This document shows, piece by piece, positions 5,958-33,706 of a DNA stretch of 64,000 nucleotides. A program made the position numbers and the translations under genes. Every line of letters starts with the position of its first letter. Within the stretch, counting starts at the first letter, position 1. Source of the DNA: Aquabacterium sp. (GTDB taxonomy: Bacteria > Pseudomonadota > Gammaproteobacteria > Burkholderiales > Burkholderiaceae_C); contig NZ_JAYRDZ010000005.1 in NCBI RefSeq assembly GCF_041909175.1, forward strand, positions 60,417 to 124,416. The letters are read 5' to 3'. Below the pieces are notes generated by a model. That model was given only the letters and a program-made list of their open reading frames with translations, was not told where the DNA came from and did no database searches.

Positions 5958-7856
5958 TCAGTTGCCTCGCTGGACGACGTCCTTGATGTGCTGCAGGGCG
6001 GTTGGGTCTTCCAGTGTGGTGAGGTCGCCCGTGTCGCGGCCTTCGCACACCGCCAGCATGGCGCGGCGCAGCAGCTTGCCCGAGCGGGTCTTGGGCAAGG
6101 CGTTGACGAAGTGCACGCGCGCCGGGCGGGCCACGGCCCCCAACTGGCTGTCGACCGTGTGCATCACGTCCTTTTCCAGGGCCTGGCGGTCGGCATCGCT
6201 GGCCACGCGGGCGGGGTCGCGCACCACCACGAAGGCATGGGCGACCTGGCCCTTGAGGCTGTCCGCCACCCCGACCACGGCCACTTCGGCCACACCGGCA
6301 TGGCTGCTGATGGCCTCTTCGATTTCACGGGTGCCCAGGCGGTGGCCGGCCACGTTGATCACGTCGTCGGTGCGCCCCAGGATGAAGTAGAAGCCGTCGG
6401 CATCGCGGATGCCCCAGTCGAAGGTGTTGTAGACCTGACGCTTGAAGGTGCTCCAGTAGGTCTTTACGAAGCGGGCATCGTCACCCCAGACGGTTTGCAG
6501 GCAACCGGGGGGCAGCGGGCCCTCGATGGTCAGCACACCCTTCTGATTGGGCTCGGTCAGGTCTTCGCCAGTGAGGTCGTTGAGCAGCTTGACGTTGTAG
6601 CCCAGCATGGGCACGCCGGGTGAGCCAAAGCGGGTGGGTTGATCCGGCTGCACACCGCGGGCCACGCTCAGGATGGGCCAGCCGGTTTCCGTCTGCCAGT
6701 AGTTGTCGATGATGGGCTTGCCGATGGCATCGGCGATCCAGCGGGCGGTGGGCTCATCGAGCGGCTCACCCGCCAGGAACAGATGCTTGAGCGAGGACAA
6801 ATCGTGGCGCTTGAGGCACTCCGGGTCCTGCTTCTTGAGCACACGGATGGCCGTGGGTGCCGAGAACATCACGCTGACCCTGTACTTCTCGACCATGGAC
6901 CACCAGATGGCGGCATCAGGACGGATCGGCAGGCCTTCGTAGACGATGGTGGCCATGCCGGAGATCAGCGGGCCATAGACGATGTAGCTGTGGCCCACCA
7001 CCCAGCCGATGTCGCTGGTGCACAGGAAGGTTTCACCTGGCTTGCCGCAGTAGATCTGCTCCATGGAGGCCGCCAGCGCCACGGCATAGCCGCCGGTGTC
7101 ACGCTGCACGCCCTTGGGCTTGCCGGTGGTGCCACTGGTGTAGAGGGTGTAGCTGGGGTGGGTCGAATCCACCCACTCGCAGGGCACCTGCGCATCCATG
7201 TGAGCGGCACGCGCTTCGGCATAGTCGACATCGCGCGGGCTGAGCATGGTGGCTTCAGCCAGGCCGCGGTTGACCATCAGCACCCGCTCTACCTTGTGGG
7301 CAGACAGTTGCAGGGCTTCGTCGAGCAAGGGCTTGTAGGGCACCACCTTGCCGCCGCGTGAGCCCGCGTCGGCAGACACCACCACCTTCGGTGTGGCGTC
7401 TTCGATGCGGCTGGCCAGCGAGTGGCTGGCAAAGCCGCCAAACACCACCGAGTGGATGGCGCCCAGCCGCACCGTGGCGAGCATGGCCACCACGGCTTCG
7501 GAAATCATGGGCATGTAGATCAGCACCCGGTCACCCTTGCGCACGCCGAGGCTTTGCAGGATGGCTGCCATGCGCTGCACTTCGACGTGCAACTGGGCGT
7601 AGGTGAGGATCTCTTCCTTGCCGGTTTCGGTTGAAACGTGGATCAGCGCGGGCTGGTCGGGGCGCGCGGCCACATGCCGGTCGACGGCGTTGTGGCACAG
7701 ATTGGTCTGCCCCCCTGCGAACCAGCGCGCAAACGGCGGTTCGCTGTAGTCGCATACCGTGTCGAAAGGGCGGTGCCAGTCGATGCGCTTGGCTTGCTCA
7801 CCCCAAAAGCCGTCGCGGTCATGGATGGAGCGACGGTACAGTTCTTCGTAGTTCAT
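5958..7856 (-). CDS. prpE: Propionyl-CoA synthetase
   Basis: LYTSGTTGKPKGVQRDTGGY, DNYWQTETG, GRTDDVINVAGHRLG and PKTRSGK; acyl-CoA synthetase family, PrpE assignment by VQRDTGGY. Confidence 0.88.
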   Translation of the reverse strand: MNYEELYRRSIHDRDGFWGEQAKRIDWHRPFDTVCDYSEPPFARWFAGGQTNLCHNAVDRHVAARPDQPALIHVSTETGKEEILTYAQLHVEVQRMAAILQSLGVRKGDRVLIYMPMISEAVVAMLATVRLGAIHSVVFGGFASHSLASRIEDATPKVVVSADAGSRGGKVVPYKPLLDEALQLSAHKVERVLMVNRGLAEATMLSPRDVDYAEARAAHMDAQVPCEWVDSTHPSYTLYTSGTTGKPKGVQRDTGGYAVALAASMEQIYCGKPGETFLCTSDIGWVVGHSYIVYGPLISGMATIVYEGLPIRPDAAIWWSMVEKYRVSVMFSAPTAIRVLKKQDPECLKRHDLSSLKHLFLAGEPLDEPTARWIADAIGKPIIDNYWQTETGWPILSVARGVQPDQPTRFGSPGVPMLGYNVKLLNDLTGEDLTEPNQKGVLTIEGPLPPGCLQTVWGDDARFVKTYWSTFKRQVYNTFDWGIRDADGFYFILGRTDDVINVAGHRLGTREIEEAISSHAGVAEVAVVGVADSLKGQVAHAFVVVRDPARVASDADRQALEKDVMHTVDSQLGAVARPARVHFVNALPKTRSGKLLRRAMLAVCEGRDTGDLTTLEDPTALQHIKDVVQRGN

Positions 7857-20352: not shown

Positions 20353-22236
<1,884 letters not shown>

Positions 22237-22258
22237 GTTGTTGTGAGGTCCGTGTTGG

Positions 22259-22286
22259 TGTTCTTTGCCAATAAAGTCGTAGACAG
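22259..22286 (+). mobile_element. Tn7-like transposon end at attTn7
   Basis: TGT-TCTTT-GCCAATAAAGTCGTAGACAG starts 22 nt after the glmS stop. It matches the Tn7 right end as I recall it (TGT-GGGCG-GACAATAAAGTCTTAAACTG) at 16/20 in the TnsB site, with the same spacing. Putative target site GTTGG at 22254-22258. Confidence 0.72.
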
Positions 22287-22431
22287 CATCGGTAGAGGAT
22301 GCGTAAGCTCCCCTGTCAAGCAGACTGTTGATTTCTAGATTGATACCTATCTGTCATTAACGCACGTCGTAGCAGTTCGTGGATGAAGTCCAAATTTCCA
22401 AGAATCTACGGTGATTTTTGAGGTGAGCGAC

Positions 22432-23148
22432 TTAGTATCCCCAATCCTCATGCCTAACCGGCAACCTGTTGAGCCGCCTCCTCAACTGCTGCCAATGCGG
22501 CAAGTACAAGTCCATCAGGTCGATGAAGCGCTGGTTGTGTGTGGGCTCCAGCAGGTGCACCAGTTCGTGCACCACGATGTATTCCAAGCACTCCATCGGC
22601 TTCTTGGCCAGGTCCGTATTCAGCCGGATGTAGCCTGACTCAGGCGTGCAGCTGCCCCACTTGGTCTTCATGCGTTGCACGAACACCCTCTGCGCCTTCA
22701 CCTTCAGCAGGGGCTCCCATTTCTCCAGCAATGCGGGCACAGCATCTCGCACCTGCTGCCGGTACCAGCCGTCCAGTACCTCTTCGCACCTGGCCTGATC
22801 TGCACCCGGCCGCACTTGCAGCTTCAGCTTGCGAGGCGTCAGGCTCACGTTTGGCGCTGCATCAGCATGGCTGATCTCCAGCAGGTAACGCTTGCCCCAC
22901 AGGTAGTGGCTTTCCTTGTTCAGGTACTCGCGGGGCGTTTCGCGCTCCTGGTCCTGCAGCTTGCGCTGCTGTGACCGAATCCAACTCAGCTTCGAGATCA
23001 CGAACAGCCGAATCGTGTCCAGCGGCATGCCCTGCGGCGCTGCCACGCGAACCTTGCCCACGGGCGGCAGCACGCTCAGGTGAACGTGCTTGATCGCCTT
23101 ACGGGTCACTTCCGCATGCAGCTCCCCCAGGTCCAGCAAGTCGCGCAT
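22432..23148 (-). CDS. M48/YgjP-like metallopeptidase associated with type I R-M
   Basis: MKTKWGSC and YIVVHELVHLLEPTHN (HExxH); ATG overlaps hsdR TGA. Confidence 0.92.
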   Translation of the reverse strand: MRDLLDLGELHAEVTRKAIKHVHLSVLPPVGKVRVAAPQGMPLDTIRLFVISKLSWIRSQQRKLQDQERETPREYLNKESHYLWGKRYLLEISHADAAPNVSLTPRKLKLQVRPGADQARCEEVLDGWYRQQVRDAVPALLEKWEPLLKVKAQRVFVQRMKTKWGSCTPESGYIRLNTDLAKKPMECLEYIVVHELVHLLEPTHNQRFIDLMDLYLPHWQQLRRRLNRLPVRHEDWGY

Positions 23149-26100
23149 CAGTACTCCTTCTGCGCAAACACGATGGGGAACAGGCGGTTCACTTCCTTGA
23201 TGTCCTTCAGCACGTCGAACATGGCCTGTTTGACCATCTGCTCTCTGGCCACCACGCCGCGCCAACCATCGGGGCGCTTGGCCTTGATGGCAGCGTCCAG
23301 CAGCATCGCGGTGTCCAGGGCTTTGTTGGCATCGCCGTAAGGCACATCAGGTTGCTGTGCAGCGTCTGTGGCCACATGGTCCTTCAGGTTGTTGTACAGG
23401 GCCAGTTGGCCTGCAGTCTTCACTTGCTGAGGGGTGTCATCAGCCTTGCCAGCGCTCACCTTCTTGGCCACCTCGGCAATGCGCGCCAGGTAGTCCTCGT
23501 ATTCGATGGCCTTTTCTTTGCGCAGGCGGATGATCTCGTCCAGCAGGGCCGACATCTTGGCGAAGTAGGCCGGGTCGGTCAGCTGTTCCTTCAGGATCTT
23601 GCTGCGAACGTTGTTCTCGATCGTCTCGGCAATGGATTCCTGGTTGCCTTTCATGTCGCTCAAGCGCTCGGCGATCGCGTCGGCGATGCCGGTCTTCACG
23701 ATCAGGTCCAGCAGGCCGATGCCATCGAACGGCGAAATCTTCCGCGGTGCCTGCGCCTCGATGTAGGTGTCGATGAGGTGGCGCATGTCCGCCTCATAGG
23801 GCTTCAGGTCCAGCGTTTCTCCTGAAGCCTTGCGGATGATCTCTCGCAGGTTCAGGTAGTGCTTTTGCAGGCTCTTCAGGTTCTCGATCTGCTCGGGCGT
23901 GTAGCCTGCGGCTTCCAGCTCGTCGGCAATGCCAGCGAAGGCACGCACCAGAGCCACCACCGCCTTGTACAGCGCCACGCGGTGCGGCTCGCGGGCCTTC
24001 AGGTCGTCAGGGATCTCGGTGTTGCCGCAGAAGTAGTGGATGTGCTCCAGATCACACTTGGGCGGGTCCACCGGCTCACACAGCAGGGCCAGCGCTTCGA
24101 CTGCGTCGTCCAGTCGCGCGCGGCCAGCCTCAAGGCGGTCCTTGACCATGATCTCGGGGTCGGCGCCGCCTGCACTGTGGTCCAGCTCCGCCGTGTACAC
24201 CGCGATGGCCTTTTCGACCTTCTTGAACAGATCTTTGTAATCAACGATGTGGCCGAAGTCCTTGTCTTCACCGTCGAGTCGGTTGGTGCGGCAAATGGCC
24301 TGGAACAGCCCGTGGTCCTGCATCGACTTGTCGATGTACAGGTAGGTGCACGGCGGCGCATCGAAGCCGGTCAACAGCTTGTCCACCACGATCATCAGCT
24401 TCATCTGTGCAGGCGTCTTGATGAAACGCTGCTTCACGTCTTGCTCGTACGACTCGGTTTTGTTCATGCCCGGGCTGGGCGTCACGTCCTTCAGCAGCTC
24501 GGTGTAGGTGTTGTAGATGAACTGCTTGTCGCTCTCAGTGTTGGCGCCGGTCTCTTCCTTGCTGATGTCGGCGGCCTGTGGGTTGTATGAGGTGACGATG
24601 GCGCAGCGGCCTTTGAAAACCGTCTTGCCGAACAGCACGAAGTACTTGCAGGCCTCGTAGATGCTGGACGCCACGAGGATGGCGTTGCCCCTCTCGTTCG
24701 ACAGCCGAGGTTTGACGGCAAAGTCGAACACGATGTCGGCCACCACCCGGTCCATGCGGGCTCGTGAGCTGAGCACGTTCTGCATCGTGCCCCATTGCTT
24801 CTTCAGCTCGTCCTTCTGCCAGTCGTTCAGGCCCTTGGTCTTGGCTTCGAACCATTGGTCAATCTGGTCGGTGTTGCCCAGCTTCTGGTCGATGTCGCGG
24901 GCCTCGTAGACCAAGTCCAGCACCACGCCGTCTTCCACAGCCTCGGCAAACTTGTAGGTGTGGATGTAGCCGCCAAACACCTCCAGGCTGGTCTGAGCGT
25001 CTTGCTTCAGCAAGGGGGTGCCCGTGAAGCCGATGAACACGGCATTCGGCATCATGGCCTTCATCAGCCGGTGCAGCTTGCCGCCCTGGGTGCGGTGGCA
25101 TTCGTCCACGAACACGTAGATCTCGCCTTGGGTGGGGCTGGGCTGGGCGGCCAGGTCACGCAGGAAGGCTTCGAAGTCATCCACATCGCGGCGGCCGAAC
25201 TTGTGCACCAGCGAGCACAACAGGCGCGGGTTGGGCTGCGCCAATTGGGCCATCAGGTCGTGGCCGCTTTGGCTGCGGTGGATGGTTTCGCCCGCATCTT
25301 TGAACACGCGCTCGATCTGGCGGTCCAGCTCGTCACGGTCGGTGATGATGGCCACGCGGGCGGCGGGTTTGTTCTCCAGAATCCAGCGGGCCAGCATCAC
25401 CATCAGGATGCTCTTTCCTGCGCCTTGCGTGTGCCAGATGATGCCGCCGCGCCGCTGCTCCACATGCTTCTGCGCAGCCTTGATGCCGAAGTACTGGTGC
25501 ACGCGGGGCAGCTTCTTCACGCCGCCATCGAACAGCACGAAGTCGTGGATCAGCTCCAGCAGGCGGTGCTTGCTGCACAGCTTGGTCAGGTACTTGTCGA
25601 GCTTGTAGCCGTTGTTGTCGGCCTCGTCTTCCTTCCAGGTCAGGAAGTACTTTTCTTGCGTCTCGATGGTGCCGTAGCGCAGGCCTTCCGAATCATTGCC
25701 CGCCAGCACCAGTTGCACTGTGCTGAAGAACCAGTCGTTGAACTCAGGCTGCTGGTTCGACAGGCACTGGCGAATGCCTTCACCCAGGCCCACGCGGCTG
25801 CTTTTCAGCTCCAGCACACCCACGGCGATGCCGTTGACGTACAGCACGATGTCTGGCCGGCGCTCGTGGCCGCCTTTGAGGGTGACCTCTTCAGCGATGG
25901 CGAAGTCGTTCTTGCTAGGCTCAGCCCAGTTCACCAGGTGCACGGTTTCGGTGGCTTGCCCAGCCTCAACCCGTACGGACACGCCGTAGCGCAGCAGCTC
26001 GTACACCGCCTGGTTGGCGGCATACAGGGTGCGGCCATGCAGTGAGGCCTCAGACCGCAGCTTGTGCAGCGCCGCGCTGATGTGGGCGGGGCTGTAACCA

Positions 26101-26255
26101 CTGCGGGCCAAATAAGCCGACAGCAGGCCCTCTTCGATGCAGTGGTTGCCAGCACGCTCCGACCAATCGCCCAGATATTGGTATTTCAGTGTGTCGGTGA
26201 ACAGCTTGATCACCCGGTCTTGGGTGGCGCGTTCGGGTTTGTTGATGCTGCTCAT
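23148..26255 (-). CDS. hsdR: Type I restriction endonuclease subunit R
   Basis: RPDIVLYVNGIAVGVLELK nuclease motif, WHTQGAGKS, FVDECHR, GFTGTP, KLLTGFDAP and QAICRTNR. Confidence 0.97.
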   Translation of the reverse strand: MSSINKPERATQDRVIKLFTDTLKYQYLGDWSERAGNHCIEEGLLSAYLARSGYSPAHISAALHKLRSEASLHGRTLYAANQAVYELLRYGVSVRVEAGQATETVHLVNWAEPSKNDFAIAEEVTLKGGHERRPDIVLYVNGIAVGVLELKSSRVGLGEGIRQCLSNQQPEFNDWFFSTVQLVLAGNDSEGLRYGTIETQEKYFLTWKEDEADNNGYKLDKYLTKLCSKHRLLELIHDFVLFDGGVKKLPRVHQYFGIKAAQKHVEQRRGGIIWHTQGAGKSILMVMLARWILENKPAARVAIITDRDELDRQIERVFKDAGETIHRSQSGHDLMAQLAQPNPRLLCSLVHKFGRRDVDDFEAFLRDLAAQPSPTQGEIYVFVDECHRTQGGKLHRLMKAMMPNAVFIGFTGTPLLKQDAQTSLEVFGGYIHTYKFAEAVEDGVVLDLVYEARDIDQKLGNTDQIDQWFEAKTKGLNDWQKDELKKQWGTMQNVLSSRARMDRVVADIVFDFAVKPRLSNERGNAILVASSIYEACKYFVLFGKTVFKGRCAIVTSYNPQAADISKEETGANTESDKQFIYNTYTELLKDVTPSPGMNKTESYEQDVKQRFIKTPAQMKLMIVVDKLLTGFDAPPCTYLYIDKSMQDHGLFQAICRTNRLDGEDKDFGHIVDYKDLFKKVEKAIAVYTAELDHSAGGADPEIMVKDRLEAGRARLDDAVEALALLCEPVDPPKCDLEHIHYFCGNTEIPDDLKAREPHRVALYKAVVALVRAFAGIADELEAAGYTPEQIENLKSLQKHYLNLREIIRKASGETLDLKPYEADMRHLIDTYIEAQAPRKISPFDGIGLLDLIVKTGIADAIAERLSDMKGNQESIAETIENNVRSKILKEQLTDPAYFAKMSALLDEIIRLRKEKAIEYEDYLARIAEVAKKVSAGKADDTPQQVKTAGQLALYNNLKDHVATDAAQQPDVPYGDANKALDTAMLLDAAIKAKRPDGWRGVVAREQMVKQAMFDVLKDIKEVNRLFPIVFAQKEY

Positions 26256-26276
26256 TCGGCCCTCCCTGGGCGCGGC

Positions 26277-27461
26277 TCAGTCGTCTTCCAGAGGCAGCAG
26301 CCCCTGGGGCGGTGCCGGGGGCCATTGCTTGGCCTGGCTGCGCTTTTCATACCAGCGGTGCATCGCAGCATCTTCCAGCGCGTACTCACCACGGGCGGAT
26401 TTCCACACCAGGGCAGGCATGCGCTGACGCAAGGCCTCCAAGGCTCGCTGCGCCTGGGCAGCGTTCACGGGGTGGCCCACCTTGTCACGGTAAAAGCGCA
26501 GCGCTTCGGCGTCGTAAGGGCGAAAGCGTGGGCCTTGTTCCAGCATGCGCCACAGCACAGCTTGCTCGGTGGGTTTGAGGCCCAAGTAATCTGACTCCAT
26601 CTGCGCTTCATCTTGCGCCTGCTGTTGCTCAGCGGCTTGCAGCAGGGCAGGCTCGAAGCGCCCGTTCAAGGCTGCCAGCGGGCTGAGCACCTGGCCCAAA
26701 GCGGCCATGAAAAACTGAGGGCGGTGGCCGAAGACCTCGAAGGCCTGTTGCAACAGGGCCTGGTTCACTGGCTTGAGGTCGGGCCGCTGGGCCTCGATGA
26801 GCGCAGCCACATGGGCAATGAAGTCCAGTCCCAGAGGGGGCATGCGCTGGATTTGCGAGCCGTAAAACGGCGCGCCAGCCGTGTTGACCAGGCGCAGCAG
26901 TTTGTCGCGGTCTGAGCCCGACATGACCAGCATCAAGTTGACCTGACCGGGCTGGTTGAGCTGGTCACGGGCAGACTTCAATGCCGTCATCGCGGCCTCG
27001 CCAGCCTCGCTGGTGAGGGCGTGCTGAGCTTCGTCAATGATGAGCGCCACAGGTTGGCCCGCATGCTCGTGCAGCAATCTCAGGGCGTCGGTCAGTGTCA
27101 ATCCATCGATCTTGCCGATCTTGCTGGTATCCACTTCCAGCCCGCCGAGCTTGACTTTGTCGAGTCCGGCCTTGCGTGCGGTGCGCGCCACCAGGCCAAG
27201 CTGGGGCTCCAGGGCCCGTGCGATCGCTTCGGCAATCAATGCGCCTGGGTCACGCCGGGCATCGGCCCACAAATCCACATACACCACCACCACACCGGCC
27301 GCCTGCAAGGCGGGGCGCAAATCGCCCTGCAAGAAGGTGGACTTGCCGGTGCGGCGCGGCGCGGCCAGGAACAGTCCGTTGTGGGCGTCGCCCAGCAGGG
27401 CCTTGCCTTGCAGGGCGGCCACCAGTTCCTGAGCCAGGGCGGTGCGGGGAAAGGCGATCAT
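26277..27461 (-). CDS. P-loop ATPase with C-terminal winged-helix-like region
   Basis: Walker A APRRTGKS, Walker B LIIDEAQ and VMSGS. Confidence 0.85.
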   Translation of the reverse strand: MIAFPRTALAQELVAALQGKALLGDAHNGLFLAAPRRTGKSTFLQGDLRPALQAAGVVVVYVDLWADARRDPGALIAEAIARALEPQLGLVARTARKAGLDKVKLGGLEVDTSKIGKIDGLTLTDALRLLHEHAGQPVALIIDEAQHALTSEAGEAAMTALKSARDQLNQPGQVNLMLVMSGSDRDKLLRLVNTAGAPFYGSQIQRMPPLGLDFIAHVAALIEAQRPDLKPVNQALLQQAFEVFGHRPQFFMAALGQVLSPLAALNGRFEPALLQAAEQQQAQDEAQMESDYLGLKPTEQAVLWRMLEQGPRFRPYDAEALRFYRDKVGHPVNAAQAQRALEALRQRMPALVWKSARGEYALEDAAMHRWYEKRSQAKQWPPAPPQGLLPLEDD

Positions 27462-27464
27462 GCT

Positions 27465-27525
27465 GATTATTGTCGATTACTGTTGAAACGATAATTTATC
27501 CAAATGTGGATAAAAGTCAATAATC
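27465..27525. promoter_or_regulatory. AT-rich nested inverted repeats upstream of the ATPase, including a DnaA-box-like 9-mer
   Basis: GATTATTGTC (27465) with GTCAATAATC (27516-27525); inner TTATCCA-AATG-TGGATAA (27496-27513); TGTGGATAA is the reverse complement of TTATCCACA. Confidence 0.45.
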
Positions 27526-27569
27526 GGGCGGATGCTTCGGCCTGAGGCCGCCGCATGGCCAGTTGCAAC

Positions 27570-28517
27570 TCAGTGCCGGATCAGCTTGAAACTAACCTGG
27601 TAGCGATAGAAGCTGATGTTCGGCACCGCCAGCAGGGCCCAGCGCAGCTTCTGGTCATCGTCCAGCGCGATGATGGCGCCCTCGACCGTCTGGTGGGGCT
27701 CGGCGATCTGCTCCTTCACGTAGCCCATGTAGCGCAGGATCTGGCCGACCACCACGTCAGAGGCGCGACCACGCTTGAGTTCGACCACCAGCAGGCGCTG
27801 CCCGTCTTTGCTCACGGCCAGGATGTCGATGGGGCCGGCGTCGGTGGCGTATTGCTGGCCCACCAGCTCGCCGTCTTCCTCAACGATCTTGAAGTGCTGC
27901 GCCAGTTCGGTTTGCGCCCAGTTCTTCACCAGGAAGTCTTCCAGGTGCTTTTCCATGGCGAAGGCCACGGGGTCTTCCACCACCGGGTCGGTGGCCACGA
28001 TGCTGGGCGCGGCCTGGCCGGGCAGGGTCGAGAGGAACTGCTCGATTTCCTGGTGGTGGTCGGTGATGTTGCTCACCGTGCCGATGGAGCCGGTGGAGTT
28101 GCGCAGCGCCTCACTCATGGCGGCGCGGGCGATGGTGATGGGCAGCCAGTTCACGCTGCGGCGGTGGGGCAGCACCTGGCCTGGCGCATAGGTGTAGCCT
28201 CCTTGCACTTCACCCACGAGATAGTTGCCCGAGCCATCGGGGCACAGCACGATGTCGCCCGCTTCGATGCCTTTGGCCACCGTCCACAGCGCACCGCAGG
28301 CCAGGCCAGCGGCGATCTTGCTTTTGTCGGGGTGGCCAGCCAGGAACACGGGGATGAAGGCAGCGTTGAACTGCCTCCACTCATCGGGCAGTTGGCCGGT
28401 GAGGTCAACGTGGATGCCGAAATCGGCACCGATGAAGCCGGCTGTGTGGCATTCTGCTGCGTGCACGCTCTGGCGGCCCAGCATGACGCGGTAGTAGCGC
28501 TTGGCAGGTTTGCTCAT
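27570..28517 (-). CDS. NucS/DUF91-like PD-(D/E)xK nuclease with N-terminal EVE/PUA-like domain
   Basis: EKHLEDFL..NW and IDILA...LVVELKRG; N-terminal GDIVLCP...VGEV..Y.Y...HRRSVNW; ATG overlaps hsdS TGA. Confidence 0.85.
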   Translation of the reverse strand: MSKPAKRYYRVMLGRQSVHAAECHTAGFIGADFGIHVDLTGQLPDEWRQFNAAFIPVFLAGHPDKSKIAAGLACGALWTVAKGIEAGDIVLCPDGSGNYLVGEVQGGYTYAPGQVLPHRRSVNWLPITIARAAMSEALRNSTGSIGTVSNITDHHQEIEQFLSTLPGQAAPSIVATDPVVEDPVAFAMEKHLEDFLVKNWAQTELAQHFKIVEEDGELVGQQYATDAGPIDILAVSKDGQRLLVVELKRGRASDVVVGQILRYMGYVKEQIAEPHQTVEGAIIALDDDQKLRWALLAVPNISFYRYQVSFKLIRH

Positions 28518-29731
28518 GTGGTTGGCTCCACGAGGCGGATGCGGCCGGTCAGCAGGGCTTGGGCCATGGCTTGTTTGAGGGCGCGGGCTTTTGTGAGGCG
28601 CTCCTCGAGAGCTGCGATATTCACTTCAAGGTCGGAAAGTACCTCGACGATAGCTGTTTGCTCAGCTACGGTAGGCGGAAGGCGAACCTCGAAGGTCATG
28701 AACGTCGGCAGACGCAATGAGTCAACAGTTGCTTTGACTGAGTTCTCCATTGCGTGGGGGCCGAAGAAGACGCGCATGAAGAAATACACGAAACGACCTA
28801 GGACACTTTCACTAAAGTCAGTGATGCCATAGACGCGCTGATGCAGGGCAAAGCGGCCATGGAAGTAGTGAAAGATGCTGCCGATTCCACCTTCTCCCGG
28901 AATCAGAATTGCCTCACAGTCATGCGTGTAGGTATCAATCCGCTCAACACTTTGCGATCGAACAAAGAACGGGAATTCGCCATCCTCAACCTTGTCTTGG
29001 TTGTTCATCGAACCTGTTTTGATTCTTGCTATCTCTCCCAATGGGGCACAAGTCCAATCGCCGGCGAACCCCGGCAACCGCCGCTTGCCGGTGAGCAGTT
29101 CCTGCATGGTGCCTTGCTTGATCTGGCGCTTCTTGGTCAGCAGTTGCTCCAGCGAGTCGATCAGGGAGTCGGCGTCGGTGAGGGCGGCAGCAATGGCTCG
29201 CTGCTCAGTCGGCGTACTCGGCATCCCGATGTGTATCTTCTTGACGATCTCACCGCTGAGGTTCTCCTGACTTCCGCCATTGCTGAGGCTGCGGATGTAC
29301 TCGTAGCGATGGGTTAGGTTGTGTCGTACAAAGTCACCGTCCACGCCCTCTTCGAGCTTGATGCCAGCACATGCCTGGTTGGTTGTTGCTGCGATGCGCA
29401 GAACAGCACATTTGCCACGAGTCTTGCCTTGGCCATAGAGCGCGATGAGTAGCGTGCCCGCGGGTAGCCACTTCGCCGCTGAGTTCTGGAGTCCGGCTAA
29501 GGTGATGTGCTGGGCGGCGCTAGTTACTTGGCCACATTCAAGTTCTGCGGTTGTAACCCAGGGAATGTCGCCATCCCAATATGCGGTCACCTTGCGACTG
29601 GGTGTGCCACCAGAAGTCACTTCCGCCATGTCGCCAACCGTTTTGTCGAGCCAATCGATTGGAATGTCACCGGCCTCGGTTCGTTTGAACTGAGCTGTCA
29701 AGTACTTGACGTTGGGCTCCTTCACTTCCAT
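28514..29731 (-). CDS. hsdS: Type I R-M specificity subunit
   Basis: Two TRDs, each followed by P..EQ.AI...L.D.D..I..LE..L.K...KQ..MQ.LLTG..RL conserved helices. Confidence 0.95.
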   Translation of the reverse strand: MEVKEPNVKYLTAQFKRTEAGDIPIDWLDKTVGDMAEVTSGGTPSRKVTAYWDGDIPWVTTAELECGQVTSAAQHITLAGLQNSAAKWLPAGTLLIALYGQGKTRGKCAVLRIAATTNQACAGIKLEEGVDGDFVRHNLTHRYEYIRSLSNGGSQENLSGEIVKKIHIGMPSTPTEQRAIAAALTDADSLIDSLEQLLTKKRQIKQGTMQELLTGKRRLPGFAGDWTCAPLGEIARIKTGSMNNQDKVEDGEFPFFVRSQSVERIDTYTHDCEAILIPGEGGIGSIFHYFHGRFALHQRVYGITDFSESVLGRFVYFFMRVFFGPHAMENSVKATVDSLRLPTFMTFEVRLPPTVAEQTAIVEVLSDLEVNIAALEERLTKARALKQAMAQALLTGRIRLVEPTT

Positions 29732-32151
29732 GTAAACCCCATCATCGCCAGATGACCAGCCACCCGCGCCTCCAGGTAATCCACCTGCTGCGCCATCTCC
29801 GGCATCGTCTGGCCATACCGCTCGGCCAATTCTTTCACCCGCCCCGTCAACGCCTGGCTCACACGGTCCAGCTCGCCATGCACTGCGGCATCCAGCGCAG
29901 TCATCCACTTGTGGTCTATCACCAGCGTCTTTACCTCATCGGTAGTCAGTGTGGCGTAACGCGCCAGTGCCATCGCGTCCAGCTCGGCATCCAGTGTCTT
30001 GATGCGCTTCTTCAGGCTGCTCACCTGCTCTGAAAAGACCGCCCAACGCTTGAGCACGGCCAGTTCTTCGGCGGCATCCGGATCTGGCCCGATCTCCTTG
30101 ATGCGCGACTTCACTTCCTTGTCGTTGATCTTGTCGAAGCCGTTGAACACGGCATCGTCGCCGCTGTGCTCTTCTTCCAGTTCGGTTTGCGCAGCCTGGG
30201 CGCTGTCCAGCTCGGCCGTCAGCTTGTCCAGTTCGGCTTGCTCGGCCGCGAAGTGGTGCTGCACCAGCAAGGCCTTGGGTACGAGGTCGCAGGCCCAGCC
30301 TTTGTCCACGGTCTTGCCGGGCGTGCCATCCTTGTTTTTCTTGGTCTCCAGCACGCGGTAGGGCTCGGCCTTCCAGCCGTCTTCGGCAATCAGGTAGGCG
30401 TCGTCTTGCATCGTGTTGGCCCAGTAGTCCGTCAGGTGCTGGTACACGGCATAGGGGTCGATCAGGGCCCGGGCTGTGGGCTGGTGCTCGTAGTGCGCCA
30501 GCAGACCTTCGGCCAGCTCATGGATCAGCTCTTTAGGGTGGAAGCCGGGTGCCAGCGTTTTCAGCCGTTGGGTCGCGGGTGTTCGCCACGCATCGAAGTG
30601 CCCGTTCATGGCCTGGGTGAAGGCCTGGAACTCGGCGTGATGGTGGATGGTGGCTTTGATGGCCGCAGGCGCCACCGTCAAGTCCACATAGCCGGGGCGA
30701 CGGGGTTTGAACAGGGCAGCCTGCATCTGCGGGCAAACGGCCCAGTAGCGGCCCAGCGCTTGCACATCGGCCTCGGGAATGCCGCCGTTCAGGTGGGCAT
30801 CAATGTCCTGCTGGTCTTCGGGCGTGCTGCTGTCGATATAGCGCGGCAGGTTGAGGTTGAAGTCGTTCTTCTCGATCTCGTCCAGCCCCACCATGCGGGC
30901 GTAGCGCGGGTCGCTGTCGTCCAGCTGGGTGAAGGTGTCCACGATGCGGTGGATGTCGCGCTCGCGCAGGCGGTTCTTGGGGCCGTCTTTCATGAAGCCT
31001 TGCGAGGCGTCGATCATGAAGATGCCTTTGCGCGCCGCTGCACCGCCCTTGTCGATGACGATGATGCAGGCCGGGATGCCGGTGCCGTAGAACAGGTTGG
31101 CGGGCAGGCCGATGATGGCCTGGATCAGGCCGCGCCGCACCAGGCTCTTGCGGATCTCGGCTTCGGCATTGCCCCGGAACAGCACGCCGTGCGGCAAGAT
31201 GCACGCGCCCCGGCCGGTGCTCTTGAGCGAGCGGATGATGTGCAGCAGGTAGGCGTAGTCGCCTTGTTTGTCGGGCGGGATGCCGTGGCCGTCGAAGCGG
31301 CCAAAGGCGTCGGCTTGCGGGGTGAGGCCGGTGCTCCAGCGCTTGTCAGAAAACGGCGGGTTGGCCACCACGTAGTCGAAAGTCTTGAGCTGGTCGCCGT
31401 CCAGGAACTTGGGGTCGGCCAGGGTGTTGCCTTGCTCGATCACGGCACCGGGGTTGTGGTGCAGGATCATGTTCATGCGGGCCAGGCCGCTGGTGACTTC
31501 TTCCTTTTCCTGGCCGTACACGCTCACCTCGGTGGGTGCTGCCTCAGTCACTTTCAGCAGCAGGGAACCTGAACCGCAGGTCGGGTCATACACGGTGGTG
31601 TCGGGGCTGGTCTTGGCTTTGGCAATGCCCAGCACCTGGGCCATCACGCGGCTGACTTCGGCCGGGGTGTAGAACTGCCCCTTGCTCTTGCCACTTTCGG
31701 TGGCGAAGTGGCGCATCAGGTATTCGTAGGCATCGCCCAGGATGTCGTCGCCATCGGCGCGGTGGCGCGTGAAATCCAGGTCGCGCGATTCGAAGATGCC
31801 GATCAGATTGGTGAGCTTGTCAACCTTCTCTTTGCCTGAGCCCAGCAGGGCATCGTCGTTGAAGTCGGCCTTGATGCGCAGGCGGTTGGCTTCTTCCAGT
31901 GGGCGAACGATTTTCTTGTTGATCTGGTCGCCAATGTCGCTGCGGCCCTTGAGGGCCACCATGTCGGCAAAGCTCGCGCCTTCGGGGATCTGGATGGGGG
32001 CAAACGGTTGGCCAGCGTACTTGTCGCTGATGTACTTGATGAACAGCAGGACCAGCACGTAGTCCTTGTACTGGCTGGCGTCCATGCCGCCACGCAGCTC
32101 GTCGCATGAGGCCCAGAGTTTGGAATAGAGGTCTGACTTCTTGATGGGCAT
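29722..32151 (-). CDS. hsdM: Type I R-M N6-adenine methyltransferase
   Basis: LWASCDELRGGMD, GQFYTP, YDPTCGSGSLL, VANPPF and PHGVLFRG; start at MPIKKSDLY. Confidence 0.97.
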   Translation of the reverse strand: MPIKKSDLYSKLWASCDELRGGMDASQYKDYVLVLLFIKYISDKYAGQPFAPIQIPEGASFADMVALKGRSDIGDQINKKIVRPLEEANRLRIKADFNDDALLGSGKEKVDKLTNLIGIFESRDLDFTRHRADGDDILGDAYEYLMRHFATESGKSKGQFYTPAEVSRVMAQVLGIAKAKTSPDTTVYDPTCGSGSLLLKVTEAAPTEVSVYGQEKEEVTSGLARMNMILHHNPGAVIEQGNTLADPKFLDGDQLKTFDYVVANPPFSDKRWSTGLTPQADAFGRFDGHGIPPDKQGDYAYLLHIIRSLKSTGRGACILPHGVLFRGNAEAEIRKSLVRRGLIQAIIGLPANLFYGTGIPACIIVIDKGGAAARKGIFMIDASQGFMKDGPKNRLRERDIHRIVDTFTQLDDSDPRYARMVGLDEIEKNDFNLNLPRYIDSSTPEDQQDIDAHLNGGIPEADVQALGRYWAVCPQMQAALFKPRRPGYVDLTVAPAAIKATIHHHAEFQAFTQAMNGHFDAWRTPATQRLKTLAPGFHPKELIHELAEGLLAHYEHQPTARALIDPYAVYQHLTDYWANTMQDDAYLIAEDGWKAEPYRVLETKKNKDGTPGKTVDKGWACDLVPKALLVQHHFAAEQAELDKLTAELDSAQAAQTELEEEHSGDDAVFNGFDKINDKEVKSRIKEIGPDPDAAEELAVLKRWAVFSEQVSSLKKRIKTLDAELDAMALARYATLTTDEVKTLVIDHKWMTALDAAVHGELDRVSQALTGRVKELAERYGQTMPEMAQQVDYLEARVAGHLAMMGFTWK

Positions 32152-32326
32152 GAGAGAACTGAATCCAGGGATACATTTATGCGAATAGCGATATTTTCGA
32201 CGACAGCGAGCGCTGTTGGTTCCATGTGCGCTGCTGAGAGGTTGAGCATGATTTGGGTTTGCAGGGCACGGGCCTACCCCCTTCAGATGATTGCCAATTT
32301 TTGTGGCAGAGCCAAGGCGAGCGGAT

Positions 32327-32452
32327 TGTCTGCATTTTGCTGCTGACAGGCCTTGTCCCGCATCTATGGGACAAGACCTCCTGCCTGCCTGTGTCACGAT
32401 GGGCTGACTGACGGCGGGTGAAGAAAGGGTGTCCCGCATGAAGGGGACACCC
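32327..32452. repeat. Array of TGTC-Nx-GACA inverted repeats (res-site-like)
   Basis: TGTC-N14-GACA (from 32327), CTTGTCCC-GCATCTAT-GGGACAAG (32352-32375), TGTC-N10-GACT (from about 32392) and GGGTGTCCC-GCATGAAG-GGGACACCC (32427-32452). Confidence 0.6.
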
Positions 32453-32653
32453 GTGCACGTTACTGAGGCTCCCGCGTTGGATGAGCAGGCCGCCAGATGT
32501 CTGACCACCGGCCGCAAGGAGCTTCAGATATGGACCACGTCCATCGGCAGTGCACGGCACGCCATGTCGATCAGGCTGTGACCGTGAACCGCTGTCGCTT
32601 CTTGTCCAGGCAAGCGGGCATGGTGTCGCATGTGCAATTGCCACGTCCCTAGT

Positions 32654-33443
32654 CATGTCGATCACACACACGCCAGAGGGTGCCATGCCGAATGCCCACT
32701 TTCCGAACCGCCGTGACTGCATGCAGCGCTTGCTGCTGGCTGGGCTCGCTGCCGGTGGCCCGTCGCTTGCGCGGGCTGCGCTGGAGCGACCATCCGTGCT
32801 GCGCCTGCCAGAGGGCCTGTCGCGAGACTTGAATGCCGCATTGCAAAGCAAGCAAGGCAACAGTGACTTGTCTGACGCATGGACCGTGCGGCGGTCGACA
32901 TACTTCTGGCAAACCCATGCACGGCCGCAAGGCATGACCTTGCCATCTGAGGCGGGCAAGCTGTTGCTGATGCCGGCGCTCAACTGTTTCAGTGCCTATT
33001 TTCTCAATGGTGACCATTCCATTCGCAGTCTGGGCGTGTGGCCGGACACCGGCACTGGCACCGGGCCACGGCTGTTTTTCAGTGACAACAATGGTGGCGA
33101 CGCCCTTCGAGGCCAGGCCAAGCAGGAAGAAGTCATGTTTGCCGTGCGGATTCAATGGCTGCCAGTCAGTCTGTTCGACCGCTTGCGCGCGACCGTGGGC
33201 GGCACGGACCGCGAAGGGGCACCCTTTGTCAGTCAGGTCATGCGCCGACGCACGGTATTGACGGGGTTTGACCTGCGGTTCACCAACGGTGGGCACAAAC
33301 TTCAGAGCATCGGGCTCAACAACCAGGACAGTGTTGGCTCGGACAACTGGCTGCGCTGGAGTGACAGCAATACCGATGACCCCATCCGGTGGGAGGCCAG
33401 CTACCGCTTGTTGGCAGATGGGTTGCTTCCGGATTCGGACTGA
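32654..33443 (+). CDS. Exported hypothetical protein with two internal beta-rich repeats
   Basis: Tat-like [21 protein letters not shown] signal; repeated F..F.NG.H...S.G....SD.N..D..R motif; start 32654 or 32684. Confidence 0.65.
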
Positions 33444-33475
33444 CGCGGCGGGTGGCGGCTTGCATAATCGCCCGC

Positions 33476-33706
33476 ATGGATCACCAACCGGACAACCCCT
33501 TGCACGGGGCCACCCTGCAGCACATCGTTGAGTGCCTGGCCGATCACTACGGCTGGGCGGAATTGGGGCACATGATCCCCATCCGCTGCTTCACGCATGA
33601 CCCGAGCGTGGCGTCGAGCCTCAAGTTCCTGCGTCGCACGCCGTGGGCGCGCGCGAAGGTGGAGGCGCTTTATGTTGACACCTGGCGGCGAGCCAGGGGC
33701 CTGTGA
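33476..33706 (+). CDS. VF530/DUF2132-family small protein
   Basis: [48 protein letters not shown]. Confidence 0.88.

What the first reader, a model, noticed from the sequence alone, without database searches (positions are those of the whole stretch)
22237..32500. Tn7-like end at attTn7 leading into a defence island with no transposase genes
Seen: 22 nt after the glmS stop is TGT + 5 nt + GCCAATAAAGTCGTAGACAG, with a partial echo GTCGTAGCAG at 22366-22375 in an AT-rich 200-bp block. The 3' end of the R-M operon follows directly. Established: Tn7 targets the glmS 3' end via TnsD, makes 5-bp duplications, and carries tnsA next to the glmS-proximal end; Tn7-like elements often carry defence cargo. 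Inference: this is a decayed or non-autonomous Tn7-like element whose tns module was lost. I found no ACA+GTTGG partner end in the window.
Basis: partly seen in the sequence, partly recalled or inferred. Interest (0 to 1): 0.66.

Follow-up and report, generated by a model that had tools for sequence, protein, structure and literature searches.

The report
Fossil Tn7-like end with stranded restriction cargo
Behind the glmS gene of this Aquabacterium genome lies the last 29 bases of a Tn7-family transposon end followed by a restriction-modification defence operon that such transposons carry in related bacteria; the transposon has lost its own genes, its inner binding sites and its other end, so this is an ordinary, immobile relic of a well-known kind of mobile element.

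Summary
Window 22259-22287 starts 22 nt after the glmS stop. It is 29/29 identical to Tn7-like ends in Rhodoferax sp. OV413 and a Limnohabitans MAG (both right ends beside glmS) and a Hydrogenophaga MAG. It is the best of 7.06 million positions in the host genome for a TnsB-site matrix built from relatives only.

Intact relatives have three contiguous 20-bp sites, tnsABC plus tniQ/tnsD, an inverted copy of the same terminus, and a 5-bp duplication. This locus has one site and no tns genes. No second end exists in the 3.53-Mb draft. The "echo" at 22366-22375 is at chance level.

The inserted block runs from 22259 to about 33470, since a VF530 gene at 33476 abuts glmS in empty-site congeners. 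The type I R-M operon (22432-32151) has 88-95% identical copies in other Aquabacterium, where it lies beside tnsABCD of a more distant Tn7-like element. The same operon follows the identical end in Hydrogenophaga.

Verdict: a decayed, immobile right-end relic with stranded defence cargo. An unrelated Tn7-like element with Wadjet cargo sits on another contig. This is a known phenomenon, so interest is low to moderate.

The parts
20353..22236 (+). glmS. By analogy with Tn7 TnsD, its 3' end is the attachment-site determinant (attTn7).
   Evidence: 627-aa ORF. It is conserved at 83-87% nt identity in 24 congeners, and homology stops at the stop codon in nearly all of them. In E. coli the Tn7 right end starts 25 nt after the glmS stop.
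22237..22258 (+). 22-nt spacer between the glmS stop and the transposon terminus. Its last 5 nt (GTTGG, 22254-22258) would be one copy of the target-site duplication.
   Evidence: The spacer is about 21-25 nt at most relatives' glmS-proximal ends, and 14-17 nt in the G012-type relic. Its sequence differs in each genome. No second GTTGG copy lies next to an ...ACA end.
22259..22287 (+). Relic of the Tn7-like right end: the 8-nt terminus TGTTCTTT plus one 20-bp TnsB-type site GCCAATAAAGTCGTAGACAG (+C).
   Evidence: 29/29 identical to ends in Rhodoferax sp. OV413 (L048), a Limnohabitans MAG (L043) and a Hydrogenophaga MAG (L058); homology stops after nt 29. It is the top matrix score in the genome and unique in the genome even with 5 mismatches.
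22288..22431 (.). 144-nt AT-rich filler (about 45.5% GC) of unknown origin. It contains the unsupported 'echo' at 22366-22375.
   Evidence: No match in 76 genus genomes or in any fetched locus. No promoter, terminator or Rfam hit. The echo is at chance level. The stretch is identical in two same-species metagenome contigs.
22432..23148 (-). YgjP-like zinc metallopeptidase gene, the last gene of the R-M operon.
   Evidence: PF01863, E 1.7e-62. Called as a 238-aa gene in the metagenome contigs.
23148..26255 (-). hsdR, the type I restriction subunit.
   Evidence: HSDR_N, SWI2_SNF2 and T1R_D3 domains. PADLOC REase_I at 1420 bits, full length.
26277..27461 (-). AAA_22-type ATPase gene embedded in the operon.
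   Evidence: PF13401, E 3.2e-6. No PADLOC match. Homologues at 74-76% aa identity lie near the right ends in a Rhodoferax MAG (L038) and an Ideonella MAG (L046).
27570..28517 (-). PD-(D/E)XK / NucS_C-type nuclease gene (PADLOC candidate PDC-S02).
   Evidence: PF01939, E 1.7e-9. PDC-S02, E 3e-153, full length.
28514..29908 (-). hsdS specificity subunit. The true start is probably near 29730, because the listed ORF overlaps the end of hsdM.
   Evidence: Methylase_S x2. PADLOC Specificity_I, E 5.8e-162, aligned from residue 60.
29722..32151 (-). hsdM, the type I methyltransferase (809 aa).
   Evidence: N6_Mtase and HsdM_N. PADLOC MTase_I at 1198 bits, full length. Homology to congener copies ends within 5 nt of the start codon.
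32152..32684 (.). Unique non-coding stretch upstream of hsdM, with two related hairpins (TGTCCCGCAT-N4-GGGACA) at 32354-32373 and 32430-32449.
   Evidence: No match in 76 genus genomes. The hairpin pair is unique in the genome.
32685..33443 (+). Orphan ORF (252 aa) with a twin-arginine-like N-terminus. It is part of the inserted block.
   Evidence: No Pfam or PADLOC hit. Only 3 relatives among 5.8 billion proteins. GC3 is 0.70, against 0.82-0.84 for neighbouring genes. It is absent from congeners.
33476..33706 (+). VF530-family small gene, the ancestral neighbour of glmS. It marks the right limit of the inserted block (about 33470).
   Evidence: PF09905, E 3.4e-32. It abuts glmS in G001 and G024, and lies 0.65-49 kb from glmS in other congeners.

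Best explanation
The locus is the fossil of a glmS-targeting Tn7-like transposon of a Burkholderiales clade whose TnsB sites read CAATAAAGTCGTAGACA.

Inferred history:
- The element entered attTn7 in the usual way. A TnsD-type selector reads the 3' end of glmS, the insertion lands about 22-25 nt after the stop codon, and the right end faces glmS.
- It carried a type I R-M operon as cargo in the bay between the right end and tnsA. The operon order is YgjP peptidase, hsdR, AAA_22 ATPase, PDC-S02 nuclease, hsdS, hsdM.
- Later deletions or replacements removed right-end sites 2 and 3, any other front cargo, the tnsABC and selector genes, the rear cargo and the whole left end.

Shown: what remains is 29 nt of terminus plus the operon, inside an 11.2-kb block between glmS and its ancestral neighbour.

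The relic cannot transpose. It has one end, one TnsB site and no cognate transposase in the genome.

By domain content the R-M operon is complete, and it presumably still works as a defence system. That activity is inferred, not tested.
For: Identity of the end:
- 29/29 identity to ends in three other genera, two of them right ends beside glmS.
- Best matrix score in the genome.
- Same position and orientation as 15 or more glmS-adjacent right ends, and as Tn7 in E. coli.

The family is a genuine Tn7-like family:
- G010 has tnsA, tnsB, tnsC, tniQ and tnsD. Its TnsA is 34% and its TnsB 26% identical to E. coli Tn7 proteins.
- G021 is a 26.5-kb element with both termini and a GCTTT duplication.
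- Thiomonas sp. FB-6 has a GTCGTAGAC-type right end at glmS followed by tnsABC and tniQ.

Decay at this locus:
- One site, against three in intact right ends.
- No second end.
- No cognate tnsABC.

Insertion:
- Empty sites in G001 and G024 join glmS directly to the VF530 gene.

The R-M operon as Tn7-like cargo:
- In Hydrogenophaga the identical end is followed by HerA-SIR2 and then the same operon in the same orientation (YgjP 91%, HsdR 93% aa identity).
- In Rhodoferax sp. OV413 the identical right end at glmS is followed by a fragment of the same HsdR (85% aa identity).
- In Aquabacterium G018 a related right end at glmS is followed by a YgjP-HsdR type I operon.
- In G022 and G045 copies 88-94% identical in nucleotides lie beside tnsA, tnsB, tnsC and tnsD of a more distant Tn7-like element.
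- All four tns-bearing relatives examined have 5-7 kb of cargo between the right end and tnsA.
- R-M is the commonest defence cargo of Tn7-like transposons (PMC8649781).
Against: - Nothing links the 29-mer physically to the operon. The 144 nt between them, and the 1.3 kb beyond hsdM, match nothing.
- Homology to congener copies of the operon stops exactly at the YgjP stop codon and the hsdM start codon. The operon therefore behaves as a cassette that could have arrived separately.
- In Aquabacterium congeners the closest copies are not at glmS and belong to a different Tn7-like lineage (TnsC and TnsD about 26% identical to G010's).
- No intermediate form of this species was found. Two metagenome contigs show the same junction.
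- The genome is a 19-contig draft.
Confidence: 0.8

Rival explanations
1. Two unrelated events. An old right-end relic was left at attTn7, and the R-M operon was placed next to it later by another route, for example recombination within a defence-island hotspot or a different mobile element. On this reading the operon was never cargo of the element that left the 29-mer.
For: - The operon has sharp cassette-like limits at its first and last codons in at least three different contexts.
- The flanks 22288-22431 and 32152-33475 are unique.
- The nearest Aquabacterium copies sit beside a different Tn7-like lineage, away from glmS.
- The glmS-VF530 interval is a general hotspot that also holds non-Tn7 material such as a Fic gene (G012) or a ParD-like antitoxin gene read from the DNA (G011).
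Against: - The same operon follows the identical end in Hydrogenophaga in the same orientation.
- A fragment of the same hsdR follows the identical right end at glmS in Rhodoferax sp. OV413.
- G018 repeats the glmS, right end, YgjP-HsdR layout.
Confidence: 0.16
2. A non-autonomous but still mobilisable mini Tn7-like element that could move if a cognate transposase were supplied in trans.
For: Two-ended, tns-less elements of this family exist and carry perfect 5-bp duplications. One is 6.65 kb in Rhodoferax sp. OV413 (CTAGA). One is 3.36 kb in Variovorax paradoxus MEDvA23 (ACCCC).
Against: - Only one terminus exists in the 3.53-Mb assembly, even allowing 5 mismatches.
- Only one of the three right-end sites is left.
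- The only Tn7-like TnsB in the genome is about 23% identical to the cognate type.
- From my own knowledge, Tn7 needs both ends and several TnsB sites.
Confidence: 0.03
3. A chance resemblance, or a conserved glmS 3' regulatory or terminator element unrelated to transposons.
For: The match is short (29 nt) and lies in an AT-rich intergenic stretch.
Against: - It is absent from empty-site congeners.
- It is identical to termini that bound elements with tns genes and 5-bp duplications.
- It is the top matrix score of 7 million positions.
- There is no terminator or Rfam match.
Confidence: 0.01

Closest known systems
Tn7 of E. coli at attTn7 (TnsABC+TnsD pathway)
   Same: - The terminus begins with TGT a fixed short distance after the glmS stop: 22 nt here, 25 nt in E. 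coli NZ_CP033762.1.
- The right end faces glmS.
- The TnsB-type site matches the first Tn7 right-end site at 16/20 positions.
- Relatives of the relic encode TnsA, TnsB, TnsC and TnsD homologues.
   Different: - This locus has no tns genes, one site instead of four, and no left end.
- In the intact relatives tnsA lies 5-7 kb from the right end, with cargo in between. In Tn7 it starts 135 nt from the terminus.
Genomic islands built at attachment sites by Tn7-like elements through rounds of insertion and deletion (Parks & Peters 2007 and Peters et al. 2014, known to me only as cited in PMC11014353 and PMC8649781; A. baumannii islands in PMC11014353)
   Same: - An attachment site holds remnants of an ancestral insertion whose ends are hard to recognise.
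[quoted passage not shown]
- R-M is the commonest defence cargo of these transposons.
   Different: The instance and the clade are different: a Burkholderiales GTCGTAGAC-site subfamily. Here the decay has gone as far as a single 29-nt terminus.
Tns-bearing members of the same subfamily: Thiomonas sp. FB-6 NZ_KB898522.1, and Limnohabitans sp. NZ_JAYPVP010000023.1 (tnsB split into two frames)
   Same: - The right end lies at glmS with CAATAAAGTCGTAGACA sites.
- The terminal 28 nt are 26/28 identical to the window.
   Different: - They keep three contiguous sites and tnsA, tnsB and tnsC. Thiomonas also has tniQ.
- Thiomonas carries different front cargo: RelA/SpoT-like, ParA-like and STAND NTPase genes.
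Hydrogenophaga sp. MAG NZ_JAYSFD010000010.1 island (L058/L089)
   Same: - It has the identical 29-nt terminus.
- It carries the same R-M operon in the same orientation (YgjP 91%, HsdR 93% aa identity).
   Different: - It is not next to glmS.
- It keeps a second TnsB site.
- A HerA-SIR2 pair lies between the end and the operon.
- No cognate TnsB was found in that genome either.

Membership tests
Tn7-like transposon (functional element) | Terminal 5'-TGT ... ACA-3' inverted ends | tested here: not met
   The TGT terminus is present at 22259. No inverted partner exists in the window or in the 3.53-Mb draft, even with up to 5 mismatches. Intact relatives carry the same 27-mer at both ends.
Tn7-like transposon (functional element) | Arrays of several ~20-bp TnsB-binding sites at each end | tested here: not met
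   There is one site (22267-22286). Intact right ends of the family have three contiguous sites at a 20-bp period. No further site scores above background in 22287-22431 or 32140-33480.
Tn7-like transposon (functional element) | tnsA, tnsB, tnsC and a TniQ/TnsD target selector inside the element | tested here: not met
   None lies between glmS and the VF530 gene. No cognate homologue is found anywhere in the genome. The tns genes on contig C1 belong to an unrelated Tn7-like element.
Tn7-like transposon (functional element) | 5-bp target-site duplication | tested here: inconclusive
   Only one flank can be read (GTTGG). Relatives show perfect duplications: G021 GCTTT, OV413 CTAGA, MEDvA23 ACCCC. 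A 16-nt match GGCAAAGAACA+GTTGG on contig C7 lies inside a conserved thioredoxin/TPR gene and is judged to be chance.
Relic of a glmS-targeting Tn7-like element | A terminus homologous to proven family ends, at the canonical distance from the glmS stop and in the canonical orientation, and absent from empty sites | tested here: met
   29/29 identity to ends in three genera. The terminus starts 22 nt after the stop. It has the same orientation as all glmS-adjacent right ends seen. It is absent in G001 and G024.
Type I restriction-modification system | HsdR, HsdM and HsdS encoded together | tested here: met
   Full-length Pfam and PADLOC matches for all three subunits. Enzymatic activity was not tested.

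The most novel reading that the evidence does not exclude
Members of this Burkholderiales Tn7-like clade carry defence genes in a 'front bay' between the right end and tnsA. That bay lies against glmS, so it may be the part that survives when the element decays. On this reading, attTn7 relics like this one would be a regular route by which transposon-borne defence systems become fixed chromosomal islands. In addition, the surviving terminal TnsB site next to an intact TnsD target might still impose target immunity, and so keep cognate elements out of the site.
Probability: 0.2. Interest if true: 0.45.

Novelty: new member of a known kind. Interest (0 to 1): 0.27.

Why it matters
For annotation, the locus is settled. 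The 11.2-kb block behind glmS is foreign DNA left by a Tn7-like transposon. It is not a live mobile element, and its type I R-M operon, with two embedded accessory genes, is best read as stranded transposon cargo.

More broadly, the locus is a clean example of how far decay at attTn7 can go: 29 nt of terminus remain. It also shows that surveys which look for transposons through their genes will miss such islands.

The comparison set gathered here could serve a proper study of this clade. It contains intact, two-ended tns-less and one-ended forms from Aquabacterium, Rhodoferax, Limnohabitans, Hydrogenophaga, Thiomonas and Variovorax. The phenomenon itself is already described, so a specialist would not be surprised.

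Tried and rejected
(1) Second-end search. The reverse complement of the 28-mer was sought with up to 5 mismatches in the whole genome, along with shorter cores and AAAGAACA+GTTGG. No end was found. The one 16-nt hit, on C7, lies inside a core thioredoxin/TPR gene with GC3 of 0.80 and is treated as chance.

(2) The echo at 22366. It was tested with an ungapped matrix and with gapped local alignment against genomic and shuffled controls. It is not significant.

(3) Weak inverted-orientation matrix hits at 32984 and 33076 (9.1 and 6.7 bits). Both lie inside the orphan ORF, no terminus follows them, and 0.06-0.19 such hits are expected by chance. They were not accepted as left-end sites.

(4) ACA-GT-GTTGG at 33325. 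The duplication is 2 nt out of register and the preceding 28 nt match the end at only 10/28 positions. Rejected on reading the sequence.

(5) Deriving the 22-nt spacer or the GTTGG from the empty-site sequence of G001 or G024. The distances do not fit, so this stays unresolved.

(6) The TnsB-site-like repeats (AACAAAGTCTCAAAA) upstream of the lone TniQ gene that flanks the operon in G022, G023, G045 and G048. I could not define a TGT terminus there, so the limits of that second element family remain open.

(7) Promoter, terminator and Rfam scans of 22100-22550 found nothing.

(8) The papers of Parks & Peters (2007, 2009) could not be read, as they are not held.


Full report
**Observation.**
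- glmS occupies window 20353-22236 on the + strand.
- Twenty-two nt after its TGA stop comes TGTTCTTT GCCAATAAAGTCGTAGACAG, at 22259-22286.
- GTCGTAGCAG is at 22366-22375.
- The stop codon of a minus-strand YgjP-like gene is at 22432.
- The 195 nt between glmS and that stop are 45.6% GC, against 62.9% for the window.

**Is the motif more than chance?** Homology between this genome and 24 congeners stops at the glmS stop codon in nearly all of them. Two of them (G021, G018) continue into the motif.

Alignment showed that several congeners carry, at the same place, a TGT terminus followed by repeated 20-bp units of the type CA(A/T)TA(A/G)AGTCTGAGACA. I built a weight matrix from 11 such units, leaving out the window's own. 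It ranks 22267-22286 first of 7,061,368 positions in the whole 3.53-Mb genome, at 20.9 bits, with 2.9e-5 hits expected in the region.

A scan of one genome per species for TGTTCTTTGCCAWTAAWGTCNNAGACA gave 26 stretches, all in Burkholderiales. The genera were Aquabacterium, Rhodoferax, Variovorax, Limnohabitans, Hydrogenophaga, Ideonella, Sphaerotilus, Roseateles and others.

The window's first 29 nt (22259-22287) are 100% identical to three ends:
- the right end next to glmS in Rhodoferax sp. OV413;
- the right end next to glmS in a Limnohabitans MAG;
- an end in a Hydrogenophaga MAG.

Identity ends after nt 29.

I also checked canonical Tn7. A 120-nt right-end sequence that I recalled is present at 100% identity in 114 E. 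coli genomes. In NZ_CP033762.1 it starts 25 nt after the glmS stop, with tnsA 135 nt from the terminus. The window's 28-mer matches it at 19/28 positions, and at 16/20 within the TnsB site.

The 'echo' fails both tests. It has no matrix score. A gapped alignment score as good is reached by 18% of random genomic 145-mers and by 38% of shuffles.

**The family is a true Tn7-like family.**
- Aquabacterium G010 has a three-site right end 23 nt after glmS. It then carries 4.9 kb of defence-like cargo, then tnsA, tnsB, tnsC, tniQ and tnsD, then a type I R-M. Its TnsA is 34% and its TnsB 26% identical to the E. coli Tn7 proteins.
- Aquabacterium G021 has tnsABC at 43-49% identity to G010. The same 27-mer sits inverted at both ends, at 7350 and 33853 of its contig, which gives a 26.5-kb element with a perfect GCTTT duplication.
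- The window's own site variant (GTCGTAGAC) is found with tns genes in two genomes. Thiomonas sp. FB-6 has a right end at glmS, four cargo genes, then tnsA, tnsB, tnsC and tniQ. A Limnohabitans genome has the same layout with tnsB split into two frames.
- Two-ended elements without tns genes also exist, with perfect duplications: 6.65 kb in Rhodoferax sp. OV413 (CTAGA) and 3.36 kb in Variovorax paradoxus MEDvA23 (ACCCC).

**What is left in the window.**
- There is one site instead of three.
- There is no second terminus in the window or the whole draft, even with five mismatches.
- tblastn with the proteins of G010, G021 and Thiomonas finds no cognate tnsA, tnsB or tnsC.
- The junction is not an assembly artefact. 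Two metagenome contigs that encode the identical GlmS have the identical 231 nt across it.

**Limits of the inserted block.** A 76-aa VF530-family gene at 33476-33706 lies within a few bases of the glmS stop in G001 and G024. It lies 0.65 to 49 kb away in other congeners. The foreign block is therefore about 22259-33470, not 22237-32500.

The block holds the following:
- the 29-nt relic;
- 144 nt that match nothing;
- the operon YgjP-hsdR-AAA_22-PDC-S02 nuclease-hsdS-hsdM at 22432-32151, all on the minus strand;
- 533 nt of unique non-coding DNA;
- an orphan ORF at 32685-33443.

**Was the R-M operon cargo of the same element?** Evidence for:
- In the Hydrogenophaga MAG the identical terminus is followed by HerA-SIR2 and then the same operon in the same orientation (YgjP 91%, HsdR 93% aa identity).
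- In Rhodoferax sp. OV413 the identical right end at glmS is followed by a fragment of the same HsdR (85% aa identity over residues 780-1013).
- Aquabacterium G018 has a related right end at glmS followed by a YgjP-HsdR type I operon.
- Copies of the operon 88-95% identical in nucleotides occur in five congeners. In G022 and G045 they lie next to a tns module. Its TnsA matches PDB 1t0f at E 1.6e-10, its TnsB matches PDB 7pik at E 3.7e-20, and it also has a TniB-like TnsC and a TniQ/TnsD-type selector.
- All four tns-bearing relatives examined have 5-7 kb of cargo between the right end and tnsA. That is the position the operon occupies here.
- R-M modules are the commonest defence cargo of Tn7-like transposons (PMC8649781).

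Evidence against:
- Homology to the congener copies ends exactly at the YgjP stop codon and the hsdM start codon, in at least three different contexts.
- The sequences on either side in the window are unique.
- The G022/G045 element is a different lineage and is not at glmS.

I put 0.8 on a single decayed element and 0.16 on two separate events.

**How it works now.** It does not transpose. From my own knowledge of Tn7, transposition needs two ends with several TnsB sites and the TnsABC plus TnsD proteins. None of these requirements is met here.

The only Tn7-like machinery in the genome is an unrelated element on contig C1. It has tnsA, tnsB, a TniB-like tnsC and two tniQ genes beside Wadjet jetA, jetC and jetD genes. 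Its TnsB is about 23% identical to the cognate type.

The functional content of the island is the type I R-M system with its two embedded accessory genes. Activity is inferred from complete domain content only.

**Novelty.** Islands built at attachment sites by repeated insertion and deletion of Tn7-like elements are described. So are remnants of ancestral insertions (PMC11014353) and R-M cargo (PMC8649781). This is a new instance in a little-studied clade, not a new kind of thing.

Noticed in passing
Own genome contig C1, about 104,000-118,700 (locus L027 4034-18690): An apparently intact but unrelated Tn7-like element. It has tnsA, tnsB, a TniB-like tnsC and two tniQ genes on the minus strand, next to Wadjet genes (JetA, JetC-like SMC ATPase and JetD hits). 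A third TniQ gene lies at C1:569237-569701. Its ends were not defined.
   Followed up: partly
L055 + L048 (Rhodoferax sp. OV413, NZ_FNJA01000005.1, 95205-101854); L061 2218-5572 (Variovorax paradoxus MEDvA23): Natural two-ended Tn7-like elements without any tns gene, each with a perfect 5-bp duplication. One is 6.65 kb at glmS, with an ATPase gene and an hsdR fragment. The other is 3.36 kb at a non-glmS site, with LysR and two oxidoreductase genes. They look like non-autonomous elements moved in trans.
   Followed up: partly
L024 (G010), L021 (G021), L087 (Thiomonas sp. FB-6), L088 (Limnohabitans): All four tns-bearing relatives examined have 5-7 kb of cargo between the right end and tnsA. The genes I checked there look like defence or conflict genes: AAA_15 + Cap4 nuclease (G010), AAA+ ATPase + subtilase (G021), and RelA/SpoT-like + ParA-like + STAND NTPase (Thiomonas). 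The Limnohabitans bay was not annotated. In E. coli Tn7, tnsA starts 135 nt from the terminus.
   Followed up: partly
L029 11350-12273 (G022), L026 8848-9777 (G023), L033 7867-8757 (G045), L034 440-1351 (G048): In four congeners a lone TniQ-domain gene of about 300 aa converges on the YgjP end of the same R-M operon. TnsB-site-like repeats (AACAAAGTCTCAAAA, some as inverted pairs) precede it, but tnsABC does not lie upstream. In G022 and G045 a tnsA-tnsB-tnsC-tnsD module lies on the other side of the operon. The limits of this element were not resolved.
   Followed up: partly
window 32354-32373 and 32430-32449: Two related hairpins (TGTCCCGCAT-N4-GGGACA), 76 nt apart, lie upstream of hsdM. The pair is unique in the genome.
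   Followed up: partly
L023 1-2700 (G012), L040 (G005), L054 (Aquabacterium olei): Three Aquabacterium species share a two-site right-end relic at glmS with nearly identical DNA behind it. In G012 only a Fic-like gene (my reading of the ORF, not tested) separates it from the VF530 gene. Relic ends at attTn7 therefore persist or spread between species.
   Followed up: partly
Own genome contig ends (C7 end, C12 end, C5 start, C4 end, C10 start, C13 start): The N-terminal 414 residues of the 914-aa TnsB-like ORF of G022 match a sequence repeated at six contig ends of the host genome (36-73% aa identity). This is probably a multicopy insertion sequence that breaks the assembly.
   Followed up: no
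window 32685-33443: An orphan 252-aa ORF with a twin-arginine-like N-terminus. It has only three relatives among 5.8 billion proteins and lower GC3 than its neighbours.
   Followed up: partly
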